DNA from: Naegleria gruberi
Taxonomy: Eukaryota
Assembly (NCBI GenBank): GCA_000004985.1
Contig: GG738865.1
Length of the DNA: 64,000 bases
Reading direction: 5' to 3' (one strand)
The position numbers and the translations under genes were made by a program. The notes under the pieces are model-generated. The model was given only the letters and a program-made list of their open reading frames with translations. It was not told the origin of the DNA and did no database searches. Shown here piece by piece: positions 3,625 to 28,660 of this stretch. Numbering within the stretch: the first letter of the stretch is position 1; every line of letters starts with the position of its first letter.

Positions 3625-3704
3625 ATCATACATTCCTAATCACGACAGAGTTAGGGGAATTCGATAGAAGCTAGATTCTTGTGATGAGAAATACATTAGT
3701 TGTT

Positions 3705-7372: not shown

Positions 7373-7805
7373 ATGTCTTCATCACAAAACAATAACTCGC
7401 TGCGTAATTCTTCATCCATGATGATGAACGGAATGAATCAGCAAAAGATGGGCAATAATAATAATACAAGTAGATCGCAACATCCTAATCAACATTATGA
7501 TCATTTTGCGAGAGAGGTACTACAACGTGTAATTTCGGATACATGTAGATATTATGGATTTCATGCTATTAAAAGTAGTACAAGTGATTTTTTAATTGAT
7601 TTGGTGCAAATGTTTATTCAAAAAATTGCCACAACAAGTGTAATGTATAGTAGTCATTGTGGAAGAACAGAACCAAATGTATTTGATGTTGAAAAATCAT
7701 TAAATCATCATATGGGCTTGGATATTAACGATTTATTATCTTTCTTTTACATTTTACAAGATAAATCTGAAGAAAATTCTGTTGATTTGTCAACATTTGA
7801 ATTTG
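7373..7805 (+). CDS. taf8: TFIID subunit TAF8, exon 1 (histone-fold domain). It ends in phase 1 at the donor G|GTAAGT.
   Basis: ATG at 7373 after an A-run. FAREVLQRVISDTCRYYGF…HCGRTEPNVFDVEKSLNHHMGLDINDL matches the TAF8 histone fold (human …SYCEHTARTQPTLSDIVVTLVEMGFNVDTL). A GTAAGT donor lies at 7806. Confidence 0.75.
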
Positions 7806-7849
7806 GTAAGTTTGATAAAAATAATCAAATAACCTTTAACTTTATTTAG

Positions 7850-9036
7850 ACATTCCTGATATTCCTAAAGCACCACTTTCAAGTTTAATGTCATGTCCAC
7901 AAACTCATTTCCATTTACTCTATAAAAACAAAGCAAAATCACTTTTATTTATTGATGAAGAAGAGGAAGAAGAACATGAAAGACAAATTAAATTAATTGA
8001 ACAACAAAAACCAACATTTCTACCAGCTTTACCACCTAAACATACATTTAGATTTACTCCTATTATGAATAAGAGAACAAGAGATCAATATAGAATTCAA
8101 TTAGAAAAGACAAGACAAAGAAGACATATTGAAGAATCTTTAACAAGACTTCATGAAGCTGAATTGAAACAAGTTCGTGATTTATTAGAATTGAATGAAG
8201 TAAATGGAGAAAATGCATCACAACAATTGGAACAATTAATTAAAACCAAGAAAAAGACAATTGTCCAAAAGAATGATGTTTTATTACATCTTGAAAAGAA
8301 ACCAACTACAAATGTATTAACTCAAAAGAAGAAGGAAGAACAAGCAATTCAACAATCTATTACAGAAGATGATGAGGAACCTGTTGAAGAGGTTGCTGTA
8401 GAGGATAACATTCAAACAATTGTTAATCCATATTTACAAATTGAAAAACAAAGAGTTTCATTGGCAGTTCAAAGAAATGTTACAAACAGTTCATCAAATC
8501 CTCATAATGTCACAAGGTTGACCAATATTCTAACAACACCTAAAAAGAGCACAACTATTAAGAAACCTTTTATTTCACTTATTACAAGAGATGACAGTGC
8601 AGAAGTTCAAGCAAATAATTTAATGAAAAGTGGTGCTATTGCTAATACTACTCAAACATTATCAACAATATCAAATGATGATGGTTATATTGATAATGCT
8701 CAAATAACTCCAAAACAAAAAAAGAATTCCATAATGGAAACATCTATTGGAGGTTCAATCAACAGATCTGCTTCATCATCTGTTTTGAATGATTCAACTT
8801 TAATGCCACCACCTTCTTCTCTTCCTCCTCAATTTGCACCTCCAACCTTCCTCTCTAGTCTTATGGGTTCAAATACTGCTGTAAATAATGAAGTTATTGA
8901 ACCAATCATTAGTAATAATCAACCAATGTTAAATATTGGAAGTTCTATTGCCCCTCCTCCCTCATCTGATTTTGAAGAGGATGAATTTGAAGAAGTTGAA
9001 ATTGATGAACCAAATTCTAAAAAGTTGAAATTTTAA
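7850..9036 (+). CDS. taf8: TFIID subunit TAF8, exon 2 (Pro-rich TAF8 C-terminal domain and NPYL motif). The acceptor is TTTATTTAG at 7841-7849.
   Basis: After splicing the frame reads …FEFG|DIPDIPKAPLSS…. KPTFLPALPPKHTFRFTPIMNKRTRDQYRIQLEKTRQRRHIEESLTRL matches the human TAF8 P..P..HTYIKTPTYREP…DYQ…REK…QRRDVERALTRF. IVNPYL resembles the TAF8 C-terminal NPYL. Confidence 0.75.
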
Positions 9037-24426: not shown

Positions 24427-26334
24427 ATGCAAAATTCAACCTCTTCATCTACTTCATCACTCGGAGGAAGTAGCAATGGTAGCACAAAGCCTAAAGTTAA
24501 ACCACTTCCAACAGCTCCACTCACCTCCAATCATCACCAACAACAACAACAACAATATTCAAAATCACCAAATACAACAACTTTTTATCCTCCTCCATCA
24601 TCTTCATCATCTTCATCATTAGCCTCTCATTCATCCAATAATACAAATCATACAAATCATCATCATACAAATAATAATCAATATGAATCTAATCTAACAG
24701 ATCAAGATCAACAAACATTAACCAATACAATTATTAAAGAATATTTAACAGCACAAGATGTAATTGATACATTTAAATTAGATGAACAATATCCATCATT
24801 AAAAACAAGTGAATTATCTTATTTTTATGATTTACTAGATGATGAATTTGATGATTATGGTGAAAATTTATCAATTTTTGAAAAATTTTATTACCATAAT
24901 TCAACTATTCAAAATTTAGATCATTTTAATAATAATTTATCTAATAATAATAATAATTTATTAAATAATAATAATTTATCTAATAATAATAATTCTAATA
25001 ATTTAAATAATTTATCTAATAATAATTTAAATAATAATAATTTAATTAATTCAAATTTTAATATTGAAAGTAAAATTGATGAAAAAATGATAATTAATGA
25101 ATTAAATTCCAATTCTGAAATGACAAGATTAAAATCAATTAGAGATTTAAAATTACTTGTAAAATATAAAAAAGAATATTCCATATTTATATTACCACAA
25201 TTATTTTCCTTATATAGTACAATTGAAGATGAAGAACATTATAAACAAAATTATGAATTTAATTCAACATTTCAAATATTACAAGTTATTACTTTTATTA
25301 GTGAAAATTATTCAATTGAATGTAAAAAAGAATATTCAAATCATTTTTATAACATGTTATATATTTTATCAAAAAGGAAATTACCTAAAAAGTATACAAA
25401 CAAATTTATTATAATTAATTTTTTAAAATTATTAAATATTTACATGCCAAATTATTTAATTGATAAAAATGATTTTTATGAATTTGAAAATATTGCATTT
25501 CCTTATTATATTAAATTTATTTCTTTAAATTTTATTTTATTTAATTCTTTATATTTTAATTTTATTTTAAAATCTTTAAAAATTACAAATTTGGAAATTA
25601 AAAATGAAATTGAAAATATTATTGATTTTTATTTTTATATTTTTAATGAATTTAAATATACTAAATATGTAATTAATCAATTAAAAGATTTATTTTCAAT
25701 TATTAATGAAAAATATTTAAATTCTACTTTACAATATTTTATTAATTTATTTAAAAATGAAAAATTAATTTTAGTAATGATTTTAAATAGTATTAATTTT
25801 AAATATTTAAAAAATTTAAATATTTTAGAAATTTTAAATGAAAATTTATTAAATAATTTTGAAAATAATTTAAAATTACTTGATATAGGTGAACAAGTAA
25901 TTTTATTTAATAATTTATTTAATTTATTTAATATTTTATTTAAATTTAATGATAATTTAATTTCTATTTTTATTAAATTACATGAAAATTATTTTGAAAA
26001 TATTTATAAACCATATCATTCATGTTTAAATTTTATTAATAATAGAATTAAATATACAAAATTAGAAAATGTTAAAATACAAGATGTTACAATTAAAATT
26101 TTAATTATTTTTAAAAATTTAATTAAAAAATCAAATTTTGATGAAATTATTTATAATTATTATAAATATTCAATTATTAATAATAATTTTAATATTTTAA
26201 ATTTAAATGAATTTAATCAATGTTTAATTCAAATATTAAAAAATAATAATAATTTAAATATTGATTTATTAAATGAAATTAAATTATTAACAGATAATGA
26301 TGATTTAATTCAATTAATTAATGAAAAATGTTAA
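24427..26334 (+). CDS. Lineage-specific low-complexity protein of 635 aa. The N-terminal third is Ser/Gln/Asn/His-rich, followed by poly-Asn, followed by an extremely Asn/Ile/Leu/Phe/Lys-rich C-terminal half. Function unknown.
   Basis: ATG at 24427. A 1.9-kb ORF stays open through DNA that is over 85% A+T at 25400-26330, where stops would be frequent by chance. This suggests selection. There is no recognisable domain. Confidence 0.45.
   Translation: MQNSTSSSTSSLGGSSNGSTKPKVKPLPTAPLTSNHHQQQQQQYSKSPNTTTFYPPPSSSSSSSLASHSSNNTNHTNHHHTNNNQYESNLTDQDQQTLTNTIIKEYLTAQDVIDTFKLDEQYPSLKTSELSYFYDLLDDEFDDYGENLSIFEKFYYHNSTIQNLDHFNNNLSNNNNNLLNNNNLSNNNNSNNLNNLSNNNLNNNNLINSNFNIESKIDEKMIINELNSNSEMTRLKSIRDLKLLVKYKKEYSIFILPQLFSLYSTIEDEEHYKQNYEFNSTFQILQVITFISENYSIECKKEYSNHFYNMLYILSKRKLPKKYTNKFIIINFLKLLNIYMPNYLIDKNDFYEFENIAFPYYIKFISLNFILFNSLYFNFILKSLKITNLEIKNEIENIIDFYFYIFNEFKYTKYVINQLKDLFSIINEKYLNSTLQYFINLFKNEKLILVMILNSINFKYLKNLNILEILNENLLNNFENNLKLLDIGEQVILFNNLFNLFNILFKFNDNLISIFIKLHENYFENIYKPYHSCLNFINNRIKYTKLENVKIQDVTIKILIIFKNLIKKSNFDEIIYNYYKYSIINNNFNILNLNEFNQCLIQILKNNNNLNIDLLNEIKLLTDNDDLIQLINEKC
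24928..25050 (+). repeat. Coding (AAT)n microsatellite punctuated by TTA/TCT, encoding an NNLSNNNNNLLNNNNLSNNNNSNNLNNLSNNNLNNNNL poly-Asn tract.
   Basis: Seen directly in the sequence and in the ORF translation. Confidence 0.7.
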
Positions 26335-26883
26335 ATATTTGATTAATTATTATAATAAAAATACAAATTTGTAATTTTATCAAGTTATTCTTATCTAAAT
26401 GATCCAATTCAATAATTTTACAGTAATAAATGTTCTATATGAACTCCTTTCCCTTGTCAGTTAAAATCTGATCATTAATCACATATAATTAGATGTTATA
26501 TGTTCATATCAATATTTAGCAGTTAATTGTTTGTGTGTTCTGATATTCCTTTTTTCCTCATCTTCTATTTCATTTTCAATTAGAAGATGAAAGAGTTCGC
26601 ATCACCACACAGAAAAACACAAACGTTGAACTCTATTAATAAATCCATGATGAAAATGCAACACTTTTAAAAAAATAGAAGAAAATAACAATAGCTGTAC
26701 AAATCATTAACGTGATCTGATCAACAACAAAAGCCTTTATTTTTGAAAAATCAAAACAACACGACTACATTTTGATCATATTATACAATATCGGATCAGC
26801 CTCATCACCTACAATAATATAACTCGTTATTATTAAATCATTAAATCAAAATACATCAACCTATATAAATATATAAAAATAAA

Positions 26884-27516
26884 ATGTTAGAAGCAATATT
26901 TGGTAAGAAAAAGACACCTAAAGAATTACTTCGTGAATATAAAAGAAATATTGAACGTACAATGAGACAAATGGAAAGAGAAAGATTAAAATTACAAAAT
27001 CAAGAAAAGAAATTAATTAATGATATGCGTCGTTTGGCAAGACAAAATCAAATGGAAACAGTTAAAATTATGGCTAAAGATTTAGTTCGTACACGTAATC
27101 ATATAACTAAAATGCACAAAATGAATGCTCAACTTCAAGCAATTTCATTAAAATTGACAACTTTAAATTCAACAAATGAAATGACACAAGCAATGAAAGG
27201 AATGACAAGAACAATGACATTAATGAACAAACGTTTAAATTTACCTGAAATGCAAAAGATTATGCAAGAATTTATGAAACAAAATGAAATGATGGATATG
27301 AAAGAAGAAATGATGGGAGATATGATGGATGATGTTATGGAAGATGATGAAGTTGAAGAAGATGAATTAGTAAATCAAGTTTTAGATGAAATTGGTTTAG
27401 ATATGAGTGGTAAATTAGGTAAAACTCCAAATAATAAGATTTTAAATGAAGAAACAGAACAACAAGATAATACAGATGATTTACAAGAACGTTTAGAAAA
27501 TTTAAGAAAGAATTAA
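26884..27516 (+). CDS. chmp2a: ESCRT-III subunit CHMP2A/Vps2 (Snf7 family).
   Basis: 210 aa. MLEAIFGKKKTPKELLREYKRNIERTMRQMERERLKLQNQEKKLINDMRRLARQNQMETVKIMAKDLVRTR… is nearly collinear with human CHMP2A (MDLLFGRRKTPEELLRQNQRALNRAMRELDRERQKLETQEKKIIADIKKMAKQGQMDAVRIMAKDLVRTR…). The C-terminal DLQERLENLRKN matches the MIM motif DLEERLKNLRRD. Confidence 0.92.
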   Translation: MLEAIFGKKKTPKELLREYKRNIERTMRQMERERLKLQNQEKKLINDMRRLARQNQMETVKIMAKDLVRTRNHITKMHKMNAQLQAISLKLTTLNSTNEMTQAMKGMTRTMTLMNKRLNLPEMQKIMQEFMKQNEMMDMKEEMMGDMMDDVMEDDEVEEDELVNQVLDEIGLDMSGKLGKTPNNKILNEETEQQDNTDDLQERLENLRKN

Positions 27517-27702
27517 TTTTTTAGTACCCTTTCTTTGTAAATATATTAAACAATTTTTGTAATTCTATTATTTTTTAATTTGATCTCTATTATTATTATT
27601 TGTTTTTACTCAAATCATTCGAGAATTGAGGTGAAAATAAATTTCAATCAAGGCTTGATGTTTTTTTTAAAAAAATGAAAAGCCTTTAATCGGATCACAA
27701 CN

Positions 27703-27751
27703 NNNNNNNNNNNNNNNNNNNNNNNNNNNNNNNNNNNNNNNNNNNNNNNNN
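27703..27751. other. Assembly gap (49 N).
   Basis: Run of n characters. Confidence 1.
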
Positions 27752-28374
27752 TTGTTGGGACTACTGCTCTTGATTGCATTTTGCAGCTCGACTTCTTTCA
27801 TTCATGCACAAGAAGAACAACAAGCAGGAAGACAACATCCACAACCTTCAGGAATGAGACCAAGACCACCACGTCCAATTCATTCAGGAGAAAGACCACC
27901 AAGACCTCATCCTGAACACTCTGGAATAAGACCAAGACCATCTGGAGGACACAAACTCCATCCACAGCCAAGACCTTCAGGAATGAGACCACGTCCATCT
28001 TATGCTCGTCCAAGACCTTCTGGACCAAAACCTCGTCCACCAGGACCAAAACATTCAGGACAAAGACCACCACGTCCACAGCTCCACCAAAAGATTCTAC
28101 AACTATTGAGCCAGACAATGATATTGCTCAAAATCAAACTGGAGAAATTTACCATGGAGAAAAGGAAGGAAATGAATTGACAATGGAAATTATCATCTTT
28201 TCTAGTGTTGGAGCTGGAATTTTATTGATTGGAGTTGTAATTGCTATTGCTCTTGTTAATTTCTTGATTTTGAAAAATAACAAGACTAAATTTCAAACTC
28301 ATACTGAACTTGTGGATGATGAAGCTGATACTACAAGAATTTTGGGTATTAACGATGGATCTGTTCATGCCTAA
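27752..28374 (+). CDS. Proline-rich tandem-repeat type-I membrane protein. It is 5'-truncated by the assembly gap and carries an apparent +1/-1 frameshift near 28077-28082, so it is either a sequence error or a pseudogene.
   Basis: Frame 1 (27752..28180) reads a signal-peptide-like (L)LGLLLLIAFCSSTSFIHA, then six or more SG-x-RP(R/P)P repeats. After the shift, frame 2 (open from about 28021, track ORF 28177..28374) reads APPKDSTTIEPDNDIAQNQTGEIYHGEKEGNELTMEIIIFSSVGAGILLIGVVIAIALVNFLIL, which is a TM helix, followed by a short cytoplasmic tail. Confidence 0.45.
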
Positions 28375-28660
28375 ATAAAAAGTCAATATAATTCAAACCT
28401 TGATATTACACCAAGTTTACAACACAGTTTTATTCAATTTTAGAAAGATCCAATGGTAAGATTTTGTTCTTTCAAGGAAACAATCTTTTGAGGACTCGAA
28501 AATTTCAACACCCATCACTAGCAATCGTATATCTCTCTTCATTCAAAACTGTCAAAGATCTTATTAACTGAGGTCAGTACCTCCATCCAAATCCTTTAAA
28601 AACCTTCTTTAATCCTCACTCCCAAATCTCTCCCAGCAACGTTTTTTCCCACAATGGTCA

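What the first reader, a model, noticed from the sequence alone, without database searches (positions are those of the whole stretch)
27752..28374. Pro/Arg-rich tandem-repeat type-I membrane protein on a 0.9-kb contig island, with a frameshift between the repeats and the TM segment
The only sequence between the 49-N gap and the 35-kb gap encodes a signal peptide, six or more SGxRP(R/P)P repeats, a stalk, a strong TM helix and a short tail. Its codon usage is much more GC-rich than the surroundings because of CCA/CGT codons. The repeat block and the TM part lie in different frames and switch near 28077-28082. Repeats next to gaps are the classic place for assembly collapse. The locus is therefore a mis-assembled real gene (a possible adhesion or cell-surface repeat protein), a recent pseudogene, or less likely a programmed frameshift.
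Basis: seen in the sequence. Interest (0 to 1): 0.5.

Follow-up and report, generated by a model that had tools for sequence, protein, structure and literature searches.

The report
Broken Naegleria proline-rich membrane protein gene
This is a small Naegleria gruberi gene for a proline/arginine-rich single-pass membrane protein; a 10-base deletion breaks its reading frame in this draft assembly and the public gene model hides the break behind an invented intron, so it is an ordinary draft-genome or pseudogene case.

Summary
The 909-bp island (27752-28660) lies on a Naegleria gruberi NEG-M scaffold. Frame 1 carries the last 19 residues of a signal peptide and six degenerate 12-residue SGxRP(P)RP repeats. 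Frame 3 carries an acidic stalk, one TM helix and a 33-residue tail. Both halves use the host codon bias. Each matches, in order, one intact N. gruberi paralog (NAEGRDRAFT_71308). An N. lovaniensis homolog is a single uninterrupted ORF, so the locus descends from one gene.

The break is a 10-bp deletion at 28080/28081, just 3' of the last repeat. A near-identical strain in an ENA assembly keeps ACCTTCAACT there and reads RPPRPQPSTAPPKD. The break is neither a one-base indel nor a repeat collapse. The public model XP_002677751.1 hides it with a 47-nt coding-like "intron" (28035-28081) and an internal Met start; the true start lies in the 50-N gap.

Programmed frameshifting is excluded: there is no slippery heptamer, and the permissible shift zones of the two strains do not overlap. 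The sister copy has its own stop plus a 1-nt deletion, so I lean towards a young pseudogene or null allele (about 0.5) over a draft error (about 0.35). Only reads can decide. Interest is low.

The parts
27702..27751 (.). 50-N scaffold gap that swallows the start of the gene: at least 54 nt encoding MNKYPTSLSVSRRAILTV, plus the promoter.
   Evidence: The sister contig L002 has the ATG 54 nt upstream of the point where the island begins. L002's 3.4 kb upstream of that ATG has no match in window 1-27701, so the gap is larger than 50 nt or the island is only loosely placed.
27752..27808 (+). Remaining 19 codons of the signal peptide (LLGLLLLIAFCSSTSFIHA), frame 1. Cleavage after IHA is predicted, not shown.
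   Evidence: Hydropathy 2.0-2.4 over the h-region of the reconstructed N-terminus. The region is identical to L002. The cleavage site is inferred from the -3/-1 rule.
27835..28080 (+). Block of six degenerate 36-nt (12-aa) Pro/Arg/His-rich repeats (xPxP-SGxRP(P)RP), frame 1. The mature repeat segment, including the 3 residues restored from L002, has net charge +15.
   Evidence: Codon log-odds are +53.8 in frame 1 against -48 and -31 in the other frames. 63% identical to residues 63-135 of paralog NAEGRDRAFT_71308.
27893..28020 (+). Hypervariable middle of the repeat block. It has a different unit content from the sister strain (128 nt against 118 nt, poorly alignable), while the flanks are 98-100% identical.
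28035..28081 (+). The 47-nt 'intron' of the public gene model XP_002677751.1 / NAEGRDRAFT_67129. It is an annotation patch over the frameshift. It actually encodes RPPGPKHSGQRPPRPQ, the best-conserved repeat unit of the family.
   Evidence: Exon 27854-28034 plus exon 28082-28374 reproduces P0001 exactly. The 'intron' has GC 0.53 and a GTCCAC donor. A genuine intron in this window (7806-7849) has GC 0.18 and GTAAGT...TTTAG. In L002 the same segment has no AG acceptor and is read through in frame.
28080..28081 (+). The lesion: 10 bp (ACCTTCAACT in the sister strain) are missing between these two bases, moving the reading frame from frame 1 to frame 3.
   Evidence: Pairwise alignment. The sister protein P0002 reads ...GQRPPRPQPSTAPPKDSTT....
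28081..28180 (+). Out-of-frame tail of frame 1 (LHQKILQLLSQTMILL...KEMN, stop TGA at 28178-28180). This is what a ribosome would actually make from this sequence.
   Evidence: Codon log-odds are -48 in frame 1 here.
28081..28188 (+). Frame 3: S/T/P hinge and acidic juxtamembrane stalk (APPKDSTTIEPDNDIAQNQTGEIYHGEKEGNELTME, net charge -7, one NQT sequon).
   Evidence: Aligns with the stalk of the paralogs.
28189..28272 (+). Frame 3: single transmembrane helix IIIFSSVGAGILLIGVVIAIALVNFLIL.
   Evidence: Kyte-Doolittle 2.96.
28273..28374 (+). Frame 3: 33-aa cytosolic tail KNNKTKFQTHTELVDDEADTTRILGINDGSVHA plus the TAA stop. The acidic motif HxxLx[DE][DE]ExD is shared with the paralogs.
   Evidence: Codon log-odds are +46.5 in frame 3 for 28081-28374.
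28375..28660 (+). Non-coding 3' flank up to the contig end. It has 5 mismatches to the sister strain, 3 of them in the last 21 nt, which suggests a low-quality contig end.
   Evidence: No Rfam match.

Best explanation
The island holds one gene of a small Naegleria-restricted family of type I membrane proteins. The family architecture is: signal peptide, cationic Pro/Arg/His-rich 12-residue repeats (SGxRPPRP), acidic stalk, one TM helix, and a short acidic cytosolic tail.

In this record the gene is incomplete and broken. Its first 18 or more codons lie in the 50-N gap. A 10-bp deletion at 28080/28081, immediately after the last repeat, puts the stalk, TM and tail in another frame. As written, the sequence would yield a secreted repeat peptide with a 33-residue nonsense tail and no membrane anchor.

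My best guess is that the deletion is genuine, making this a young pseudogene or null allele of a dispensable, fast-evolving surface-protein gene. The public protein XP_002677751.1 is an annotation artefact that bridges the break with a fake 47-nt intron and an internal Met.

Shown: the architecture, the homology, the exact lesion, and the nature of the gene model. Inferred: that the lesion exists in the living genome, and that the intact protein is a cell-surface or endosomal protein with an extended cationic ectodomain, possibly binding anionic surfaces such as bacterial prey.

The confidence of 0.5 applies to the 'genuine lesion' part. The descriptive part (one family gene, a 10-bp deletion, a fake intron) I hold at about 0.9.
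For: Organism and gene model:
- P0001 (XP_002677751.1, N. gruberi) is reproduced exactly from window exons 27854-28034 and 28082-28374.

One gene in two frames:
- Codon log-odds are +53.8 for frame 1 in the repeats and +46.5 for frame 3 in the C-terminal part; all other frames are strongly negative.
- The frame-1 part aligns to residues 63-135 of paralog NAEGRDRAFT_71308 (63% identity, E 2e-7). The frame-3 part aligns to residues 134-226 (E 6e-4). The two matches are colinear and abut.
- The N. lovaniensis homolog C9374_014486 is one uninterrupted 1005-nt ORF with the same architecture. The four-way alignment shows a shared tail motif.

Lesion:
- Sister-strain contig L002 is 98-100% identical in the flanks, has 10 extra bp and reads through in frame.

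Arguments for a real lesion rather than an error:
- A 10-bp loss sits 329 nt into a 909-nt contig. It is not in a homopolymer, not inside a repeat unit, and not a multiple of the 36-nt unit.
- The only other known copy (L002) is independently broken by GGA>TGA plus a 1-nt deletion in an upstream repeat.
- The C-terminal half differs from the sister at 6 of 291 sites (3 synonymous, 3 non-synonymous) plus one codon indel, about the same rate as the 3' non-coding flank (5 of 286). The neighbouring Snf7 CDS has 0 differences in 633 nt.

Fake intron:
- GC 0.53, GTCCAC donor, in-frame repeat coding, and no acceptor in L002. The real intron at 7806-7849 has GC 0.18 and GTAAGT...TTTAG.
Against: - No reads or transcripts could be examined, so the deletion may exist only in the draft. 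The island is a short Sanger contig between gaps (NEG-M was Sanger-sequenced: PMC9928731, Table 1). Its last 21 nt carry 3 of the 5 flank mismatches, which hints at low coverage.
- Substitution counts are too small to prove relaxed constraint. Three synonymous changes out of 6 against 22% expected under neutrality gives P of about 0.13, by my own calculation.
- Codon bias is fully intact, so any inactivation is very recent.
- Two independent recent inactivations in near-identical strains is itself a mild coincidence.
- The function is inferred from composition and topology only. There is no Pfam family and no literature on this gene or its paralog.
Confidence: 0.5

Rival explanations
1. The gene is intact in the living NEG-M genome. 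The 10-bp deletion would then be an artefact of a low-coverage Sanger contig: a clone deletion, or a consensus built from misaligned reads of divergent haplotypes next to the hypervariable repeat block.
For: - The island is a 909-bp contig bounded by gaps.
- Mismatches to the sister strain cluster in its last 21 nt, as at low-quality read ends.
- The repeat middle differs strongly between otherwise near-identical strains. Divergent haplotypes within NEG-M could therefore have confused the assembler and broken the contigs here.
- Codon bias and family architecture are perfectly preserved.
Against: - Sanger errors are typically 1-2 nt and lie at read ends. This is 10 nt in mid-contig unique sequence, without flanking direct repeats.
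- It is not a whole-unit collapse.
- The sister copy, from an independent Illumina/MEGAHIT assembly, is also disrupted. That shows the gene can be lost.
- No second, intact N. gruberi allele appears among 5.8 billion proteins.
Confidence: 0.35
2. The 47-nt GT...AG segment 28035-28081 is a genuine, very short intron, and the public 157-aa model (or a longer version of it) is the real product.
For: - Removing it restores the frame, and it has GT-AG ends.
- Introns of about 44 nt do occur in this genome (7806-7849).
Against: - GC is 0.53 against 0.18 for the real intron, and the donor is GTCCAC rather than GTAAGT.
- The segment continues the repeat in frame 1 with host codon bias (GC3 0.07). It encodes SGQRPPRPQ, the unit conserved at the same position in both paralogs.
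- The sister strain lacks the AG acceptor and reads the segment as coding, in frame with the TM part.
- GT and AG are frequent enough that a frame-bridging pair is nearly always available.
Confidence: 0.04
3. Programmed ribosomal frameshifting (-1 or +2) joins the repeat ORF to the TM ORF.
For: - Frames 1 and 3 overlap as open frames over 27916-28180.
- The signal-peptide-to-TM phase offset is the same in both strains: 188 nt between the identical flanks in each.
Against: - No X_XXY_YYZ heptamer lies in the overlap zone.
- The sister strain needs its shift before L002 3681, which corresponds to about window 27897. The window needs its shift after 27915. No common site is possible.
- The sister reads through 28080 in frame.
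- The paralog and the N. lovaniensis homolog are single ORFs.
Confidence: 0.02
4. Two separate genes: a small secreted Pro/Arg-rich peptide (frame 1) and an independent TM micro-protein starting at the ATG at 28183 (frame 3).
For: - As written, frame 1 gives a signal-peptide-bearing 160-aa ORF.
- Frame 3 has an ATG (MEIIIF...) just before the TM helix.
Against: - Both parts align colinearly to single proteins in the paralog and in N. lovaniensis.
- The stalk region 28081-28182 has strong frame-3 coding signal upstream of that ATG.
- No database protein matches either short ORF.
Confidence: 0.04

Closest known systems
NAEGRDRAFT_71308 (XP_002673731.1, UniProt D2VQQ3), N. gruberi 'predicted protein', 260 aa
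   Same: It has the same order of parts: signal peptide, SGxRPPRP(D/Q)H repeats ending in SGQRPPRPQ, S-rich/acidic stalk, one TM helix, and a tail with the HxxLx[DE][DE]ExD motif. The repeat part is 63% identical and the C-terminal part 26%.
   Different: It is annotated as one continuous protein and has a longer tail of about 60 aa. The window gene is frame-broken and lacks its 5' end. Neither protein has been studied.
C9374_014486 (XP_044553078.1), Naegleria lovaniensis hypothetical protein, 334 aa
   Same: Signal peptide, PSQRPPRP repeats, acidic stalk, TM helix and a tail with LQEEEDVE. It is a single uninterrupted ORF in the genome.
   Different: It has two repeat blocks separated by an acidic spacer, its units use SQ instead of SG, and its neighbours differ (G-gamma, CAF17-like). 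It may be the ortholog of the paralog rather than of this gene.
Sister-strain copy on ENA contig ERZ929261 k127_151123 (L002; protein P0002)
   Same: It is orthologous or allelic. The flanks are 98-100% identical, with the same signal peptide, last repeats, stalk, TM, tail and 3' flank.
   Different: It keeps the 10 bp and so reads through 28080. It carries its own TGA plus 1-nt deletion upstream and has a different set of middle repeats.
Proline-rich antimicrobial peptides (apidaecin, Bac7, PR-39, oncocin). This is recalled from memory and is a lead only.
   Same: Cationic PRP/RPRPPRP/PQPRP motifs. Some of these peptides (apidaecin) are made as tandem-repeat precursors behind a signal peptide.
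   Different: There is no detectable sequence-family match (Pfam scan). The repeats here sit on a membrane anchor, there are no evident dibasic processing sites between units, and no activity has been tested.
Small disordered-ectodomain type I membrane proteins and proline-rich ectodomain receptors (plant PERKs, class I formins, mucin-like stalk proteins). General knowledge.
   Same: Signal peptide, low-complexity Pro-rich extracellular region, single TM helix.
   Different: Those carry kinase or FH2 domains, or O-glycosylated S/T-rich mucin domains. This protein has only a 33-aa tail and Arg/His-rich rather than Ser/Thr/Hyp-rich repeats. No homology.

Membership tests
Unnamed Naegleria SGxRPPRP-repeat type I membrane protein family (NAEGRDRAFT_71308, C9374_014486) | N-terminal signal peptide | tested here: met
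   The window holds only the last 19 residues. The sister contig supplies MNKYPTSLSVSRRAILTV upstream. Hydropathy is 2.0-2.4. No SignalP-type predictor was available.
Unnamed Naegleria SGxRPPRP-repeat type I membrane protein family (NAEGRDRAFT_71308, C9374_014486) | Tandem S[GQ]xRP(P)RP units ending in SGQRPPRPQ before the stalk | tested here: met
   Six SGx[RK]P units, 0 of 20000 shuffles reach this. 63% identity to the paralog's repeats, with the terminal unit identical.
Unnamed Naegleria SGxRPPRP-repeat type I membrane protein family (NAEGRDRAFT_71308, C9374_014486) | Acidic stalk, single TM helix, and tail with the HxxLx[DE][DE]ExD motif | tested here: met
Unnamed Naegleria SGxRPPRP-repeat type I membrane protein family (NAEGRDRAFT_71308, C9374_014486) | All parts in one uninterrupted ORF | tested here: not met
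   The frame changes at 28080/28081. The N. lovaniensis member is a single ORF.
Programmed ribosomal frameshift site | Slippery heptamer X_XXY_YYZ (or a known +1 site) in the zone where both frames are open | tested here: not met
   None in 27916-28180.
Programmed ribosomal frameshift site | Shift site and two-frame arrangement conserved in relatives | tested here: not met
   The sister reads through in frame at this site. The permissible shift zones of the two strains are disjoint. The N. lovaniensis homolog is a single ORF in its DNA, and the N. gruberi paralog is annotated as one continuous protein.
Programmed ribosomal frameshift site | Downstream stimulatory RNA structure | not tested
   Not pursued, because the two features above fail.
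Spliceosomal intron (as in gene model XP_002677751.1) | GT...AG borders whose removal gives a continuous ORF | tested here: met
   28035-28081, 47 nt. The test is weak, since such pairs are common.
Spliceosomal intron (as in gene model XP_002677751.1) | Intron-like composition and donor consensus of this genome | tested here: not met
   GC 0.53 and GTCCAC, against GC 0.18 and GTAAGT...TTTAG for the intron at 7806-7849. The segment has frame-1 coding bias. The control is a single intron.
Spliceosomal intron (as in gene model XP_002677751.1) | Splice sites conserved in close relatives, or transcript evidence | tested here: not met
   L002 has CAA instead of CAG at the acceptor and reads through. 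Transcripts cannot be tested with these tools.
Unitary pseudogene or null allele | ORF-disrupting lesion relative to functional relatives | tested here: met
   10-bp deletion.
Unitary pseudogene or null allele | Lesion present in the organism's DNA (reads) | not testable with these tools
   No read archives are accessible. No independent NEG-M-type contig was found.
Unitary pseudogene or null allele | Neutral substitution pattern | tested here: inconclusive
   3 synonymous and 3 non-synonymous changes plus one codon indel in 291 nt. The rate equals that of the non-coding flank, while the Snf7 CDS shows 0 of 633. The counts are too small.

The most novel reading that the evidence does not exclude
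The intact members of this family could be Naegleria-specific surface or phagosomal proteins. Their strongly cationic Pro/Arg/His repeats (PQPRP, RPRPPRP) would bind bacterial envelopes, or be released as peptides that act like proline-rich antimicrobial peptides, in a bacterivorous amoeba. The repeat cassette would turn over very fast between near-identical strains, through diversifying selection or frequent on/off loss.

The evidence does not exclude this. It supports only the composition, the topology, the restriction to Naegleria, and the hypervariable middle of the repeat block.
Probability: 0.06. Interest if true: 0.55.

Novelty: new member of a known kind. Interest (0 to 1): 0.17.

Why it matters
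The main value is in curation.
- XP_002677751.1 / D2VE29 is a mis-modelled protein. It has an internal start, and a fake intron removes the family's most conserved repeat unit. It should be flagged as a partial, frameshifted gene.
- The 50-N gap is not a 50-nt gap. In the sister strain the gene's real upstream neighbour is a membrane-bound cyclase-like gene, not Snf7.

Biologically, the work defines a tiny, uncharacterised Naegleria-only family of cationic proline-rich type I membrane proteins. Between two near-identical strains, the repeat block differs sharply while the flanks are identical, and both copies are broken. That pattern is typical of fast-evolving, dispensable surface proteins. 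Nothing here bears on a long-standing open question.

Tried and rejected
- Tandem Repeats Finder on the island found nothing. The repeats are too degenerate; the repeat finder and a protein-motif count found them.
- I considered reading frame 3 through the repeat block as a Thr/Lys-rich mucin (TTSRKTTSTTFRNETK...). Rejected: the codon log-odds is -30.9, GC3 is 0.72, and there is a TGA at 27913-27915.
- I considered an 8-nt GTCCACAG 'mini-intron' at 28074-28081. Rejected as far below any known intron size (general knowledge).
- Exact-product look-ups for P0001, for the 65-aa and 63-aa frame-3 ORFs, and for P0004 found nothing on record.
- Both JGI metagenome scans (a 22-mer from the TM region, and back-translated C-terminal peptides) found no relative.
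- Pfam gave no credible family. Rfam found nothing in 26800-28660.
- Literature searches found nothing on PRJEB11402 or on the accessions and locus tags. A search for Naegleria proline-rich TM proteins listed no paper whose title or abstract bore on this gene.
- The N. gruberi genome paper (PubMed 20211133) is not held in the library.
- A profile search for further family members, for example in N. fowleri, returned only the four known sequences plus one weak unrelated hit. The exhaustive HMMER search added only low-complexity or TM look-alikes: P0003, P0006 and P0007.
- I did not predict a structure. The protein is a disordered repeat plus one helix, so a model would add nothing.

Full report
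**What is in the sequence.** The window has two N runs, at 27702-27751 (50 N) and 28661-64000. Between them lies a 909-bp island, 27752-28660.

- Frame 1 reads LLGLLLLIAFCSSTSFIHAQEEQQAGRQHPQPSGMRPRPPRPIHSGERPPRPHPEHSGIRPRPSGGHKLHPQPRPSGMRPRPSYARPRPSGPKPRPPGPKHSGQRPPRPQ. It then runs on as nonsense to a TGA at 28178-28180.
- Frame 3 reads, from 28081, APPKDSTTIEPDNDIAQNQTGEIYHGEKEGNELTME-IIIFSSVGAGILLIGVVIAIALVNFLIL-KNNKTKFQTHTELVDDEADTTRILGINDGSVHA, with its stop at 28372-28374.

The gap is 50 N. The island contains no start codon, because the signal peptide is cut by the gap. The high GC of the repeat block (0.48-0.50) comes from Pro/Arg/Gly content; third-position GC there is only 0.07.

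**Are the repeats and the two coding frames real?**

- SGx[RK]P occurs six times, with one additional SYARP. None of 20000 residue shuffles reaches six.
- At the DNA level there are six copies of a roughly 36-nt unit at 27835-28075, 65-85% identical, with spacings that are all multiples of three. Tandem Repeats Finder misses them.
- I built a codon table from ten long ORFs of the same window. It scores +53.8 bits for frame 1 in 27830-28080, against -48 and -31 for the other frames. It scores +46.5 for frame 3 in 28081-28374, against -48 and -87. The 3' flank scores negative in all frames.

Both halves therefore carry the host's coding signature, each in its own frame. Reading the repeats in frame 3 as a Thr-rich mucin is rejected on the same numbers.

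**Organism and public annotation.** A search of 5.8 billion proteins with the joined protein found only two sequences.

- P0001 is the N. gruberi 'predicted protein' XP_002677751.1 / NAEGRDRAFT_67129 / D2VE29, on an 820,293-bp scaffold. It is reproduced exactly by joining window 27854-28034 to 28082-28374. The window is therefore the NEG-M assembly, a Sanger project (PMC9928731, Table 1).
- The model starts at an internal Met inside the first repeat. It also removes a 47-nt 'intron', GTCCACC...CCACAG (28035-28081).
- That segment has GC 0.53 and continues the repeat in frame 1 as RPPGPKHSGQRPPRPQ.
- For comparison, the window holds a convincing real intron at 7806-7849. It is 44 nt with GC 0.18 and GTAAGT...TTTAG borders, and its removal fuses two ORFs into one.

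The annotated intron is a patch over a frameshift.

**The lesion.** P0002 comes from a 5013-bp contig (L002) of ENA assembly ERZ929261 (run ERR1078381), evidently a very close N. gruberi-lineage strain.

- The neighbouring Snf7 CDS is identical at all 633 nt between the window and another contig of that sample.
- L002 aligns to the whole island. The stretch 27752-27892 is identical, 28021-28080 is identical, and the 3' flank differs at 5 of 286 positions.
- At 28080/28081 L002 has ten extra bases: CGTCCACA-ACCTTCAACT-GCTCC. It therefore reads ...GQRPPRPQPSTAPPKDSTT... in one frame through to the stop.

The window's break is thus a 10-bp deletion. It lies in unique sequence five bases after the last repeat copy and has no flanking direct repeat. 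It is not a multiple of the 36-nt unit. This is neither a one-base indel nor a repeat collapse.

L002 also supplies the missing 5' end: ATG plus 54 nt encoding MNKYPTSLSVSRRAILTV, followed by the island's LLGLLLL... Together these make a canonical signal peptide.

**It was one gene.** An exhaustive HMMER search with P0002 found an N. gruberi paralog (P0004 = NAEGRDRAFT_71308, 260 aa) and an N. lovaniensis homolog (P0005 = C9374_014486, 334 aa).

- Both have a signal peptide, S[GQ]xRPPRP repeats ending in (S)GQRPPRP(Q/T), an acidic stalk, one TM helix, and a tail with a shared HxxLx[DE][DE]ExD motif.
- The window's frame-1 part aligns to P0004 residues 63-135 (63% identity, E 2e-7). Its frame-3 part aligns to residues 134-226 (E 6e-4). 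The two matches are colinear and abut.
- The N. lovaniensis gene is a single uninterrupted 1005-nt ORF.
- A profile search found no further members. There is no Pfam family, no Rfam hit, and no literature on either locus.

**Rivals for the frame change.**

- Programmed frameshifting fails on three counts. No X_XXY_YYZ heptamer lies in the zone where both frames are open, 27916-28180. The sister strain reads through the site. And the sister copy has its own break elsewhere.
- In the sister copy, one repeat unit carries GGA>TGA and, a few bases later, a 1-nt deletion at L002 about 3678-3686. Its rescue would need a shift before L002 3681, which corresponds to about window 27897. The window needs a shift after 27915. 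No common site exists.
- 'Two separate genes' fails on the colinear matches to single proteins.
- The annotated intron fails on composition, coding bias and non-conservation, as described above.

**Real lesion or draft error?** This cannot be settled without reads.

For a real lesion:
- The size and position of the deletion argue for it (10 bp, 329 nt into the contig).
- The only other known copy is independently broken in an Illumina assembly.
- The C-terminal half differs by 3 synonymous and 3 non-synonymous changes plus a codon indel in 291 nt. That is about the rate of the non-coding flank, while Snf7 has no change in 633 nt.

For an artefact:
- The island is a short Sanger contig between gaps.
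- Three of the five flank mismatches fall in its last 21 nt.
- Codon bias is untouched.
- The middle of the repeat block (27893-28020 against L002 3667-3784) is so different between near-identical strains that haplotype differences could have confused the assembly.

I put a genuine young pseudogene or null allele at about 0.5 and a draft error at about 0.35.

**What the intact protein would be (inference).** After signal-peptide cleavage it would be a type I membrane protein. The roughly 90-residue ectodomain is extended and strongly cationic (net +15, 7 His, 33% Pro). It is followed by an acidic stalk (net -7, one NQT sequon), a 28-residue hydrophobic helix, lysines on the inner side, and an acidic 33-residue tail. 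A role at the cell surface or in the endocytic pathway, binding anionic surfaces, is plausible but untested. The resemblance of PQPRP and RPRPPRP motifs to proline-rich antimicrobial peptides is recalled from memory and is a lead only.

**Surroundings.** The 3.4 kb upstream of the ATG in L002 holds two minus-strand ORFs that probably belong to one gene. One of them has a weak, sub-threshold cyclase-domain match (E 0.0017). None of this sequence is found in window 1-27701, at either DNA or protein level. The 50-N gap between the Snf7 gene (26884-27516) and the island is therefore an underestimate, or the island is only loosely placed in the scaffold.

**Verdict.** The feature is real and correctly located. 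It is an ordinary case of a frame-broken, 5'-truncated gene in a draft eukaryotic assembly, with a compensating annotation artefact. The gene belongs to a small, undescribed Naegleria-specific family. Interest is low.

Noticed in passing
window 27702-27751 and L002 1-3471: In the sister strain, the 3.4 kb upstream of the gene's ATG holds two minus-strand ORFs (555 aa, cut by the contig end, and 265 aa). They are probably one intron-split gene; the 555-aa ORF has a weak, sub-threshold adenylate/guanylate cyclase domain match. None of this is in window 1-27701. The '50-N' gap next to the Snf7 gene is therefore much larger than written, or the island is misplaced or misoriented in the scaffold.
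   Followed up: partly
L002 3660-3690: The sister strain's copy of the gene is also broken. One repeat unit has GGA>TGA and, a few bases on, a 1-nt deletion, so its signal peptide and TM parts are also in different frames. The ENA gene caller split it into a 69-aa and a 157-aa ORF, the latter with a TTG start.
   Followed up: yes
window 27893-28080 vs L002 3667-3854: The stretch between the identical flanks is exactly 188 nt in both strains, so the signal-peptide-to-TM phase offset is the same even though the frame breaks are at different places. This is probably coincidence: intact precursors of 198 and 189 nt that lost 10 and 1 nt respectively. It remains unexplained.
   Followed up: partly
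window 7806-7849: A clean 44-nt AT-rich intron (GTAAGT...TTTAG, GC 0.18) joins ORFs 7373-7849 and 7888-9036 into one 539-aa protein. I used it as the control for what a real short intron looks like here.
   Followed up: partly
window 24427-26334: A 635-aa ORF whose C-terminal 1.5 kb has only 6.5-18% GC (mostly 8-10%) yet stays open. It is rich in Asn, Ile, Leu, Lys and Phe. That is far below the 35% genome average reported for N. gruberi. It may be a very AT-rich real gene or an odd low-complexity region.
   Followed up: no
window 26884-27516 and L001: The Snf7/CHMP-family gene (Pfam PF03357, E 2.6e-35) is identical at all 633 nt to the ENA strain. Its upstream intergenic region has 13 mismatches and 42 gap columns in 432. 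The two strains are therefore extremely close, which makes the divergent repeat block of the target stand out.
   Followed up: yes
P0007 (marine eukaryote catalogue, ERR1711976) and P0006 (ENA, 646 aa): P0007 is a signal-peptide protein with FSGERPPRPD tandem repeats and no TM helix. P0006 has a Pro-rich ectodomain, a TM helix and a kinase-like C-terminal region by eye (no domain scan was run). Both match weakly (E about 1e-3 to 1e-4). SGxRPPRP-type repeats therefore recur outside Naegleria, either by convergence or by distant homology.
   Followed up: no
window 28640-28660: Three of the five mismatches between the island's 3' flank and the sister strain fall in the last 21 nt before the big gap. 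This pattern is typical of a low-quality read end at a contig edge.
   Followed up: partly
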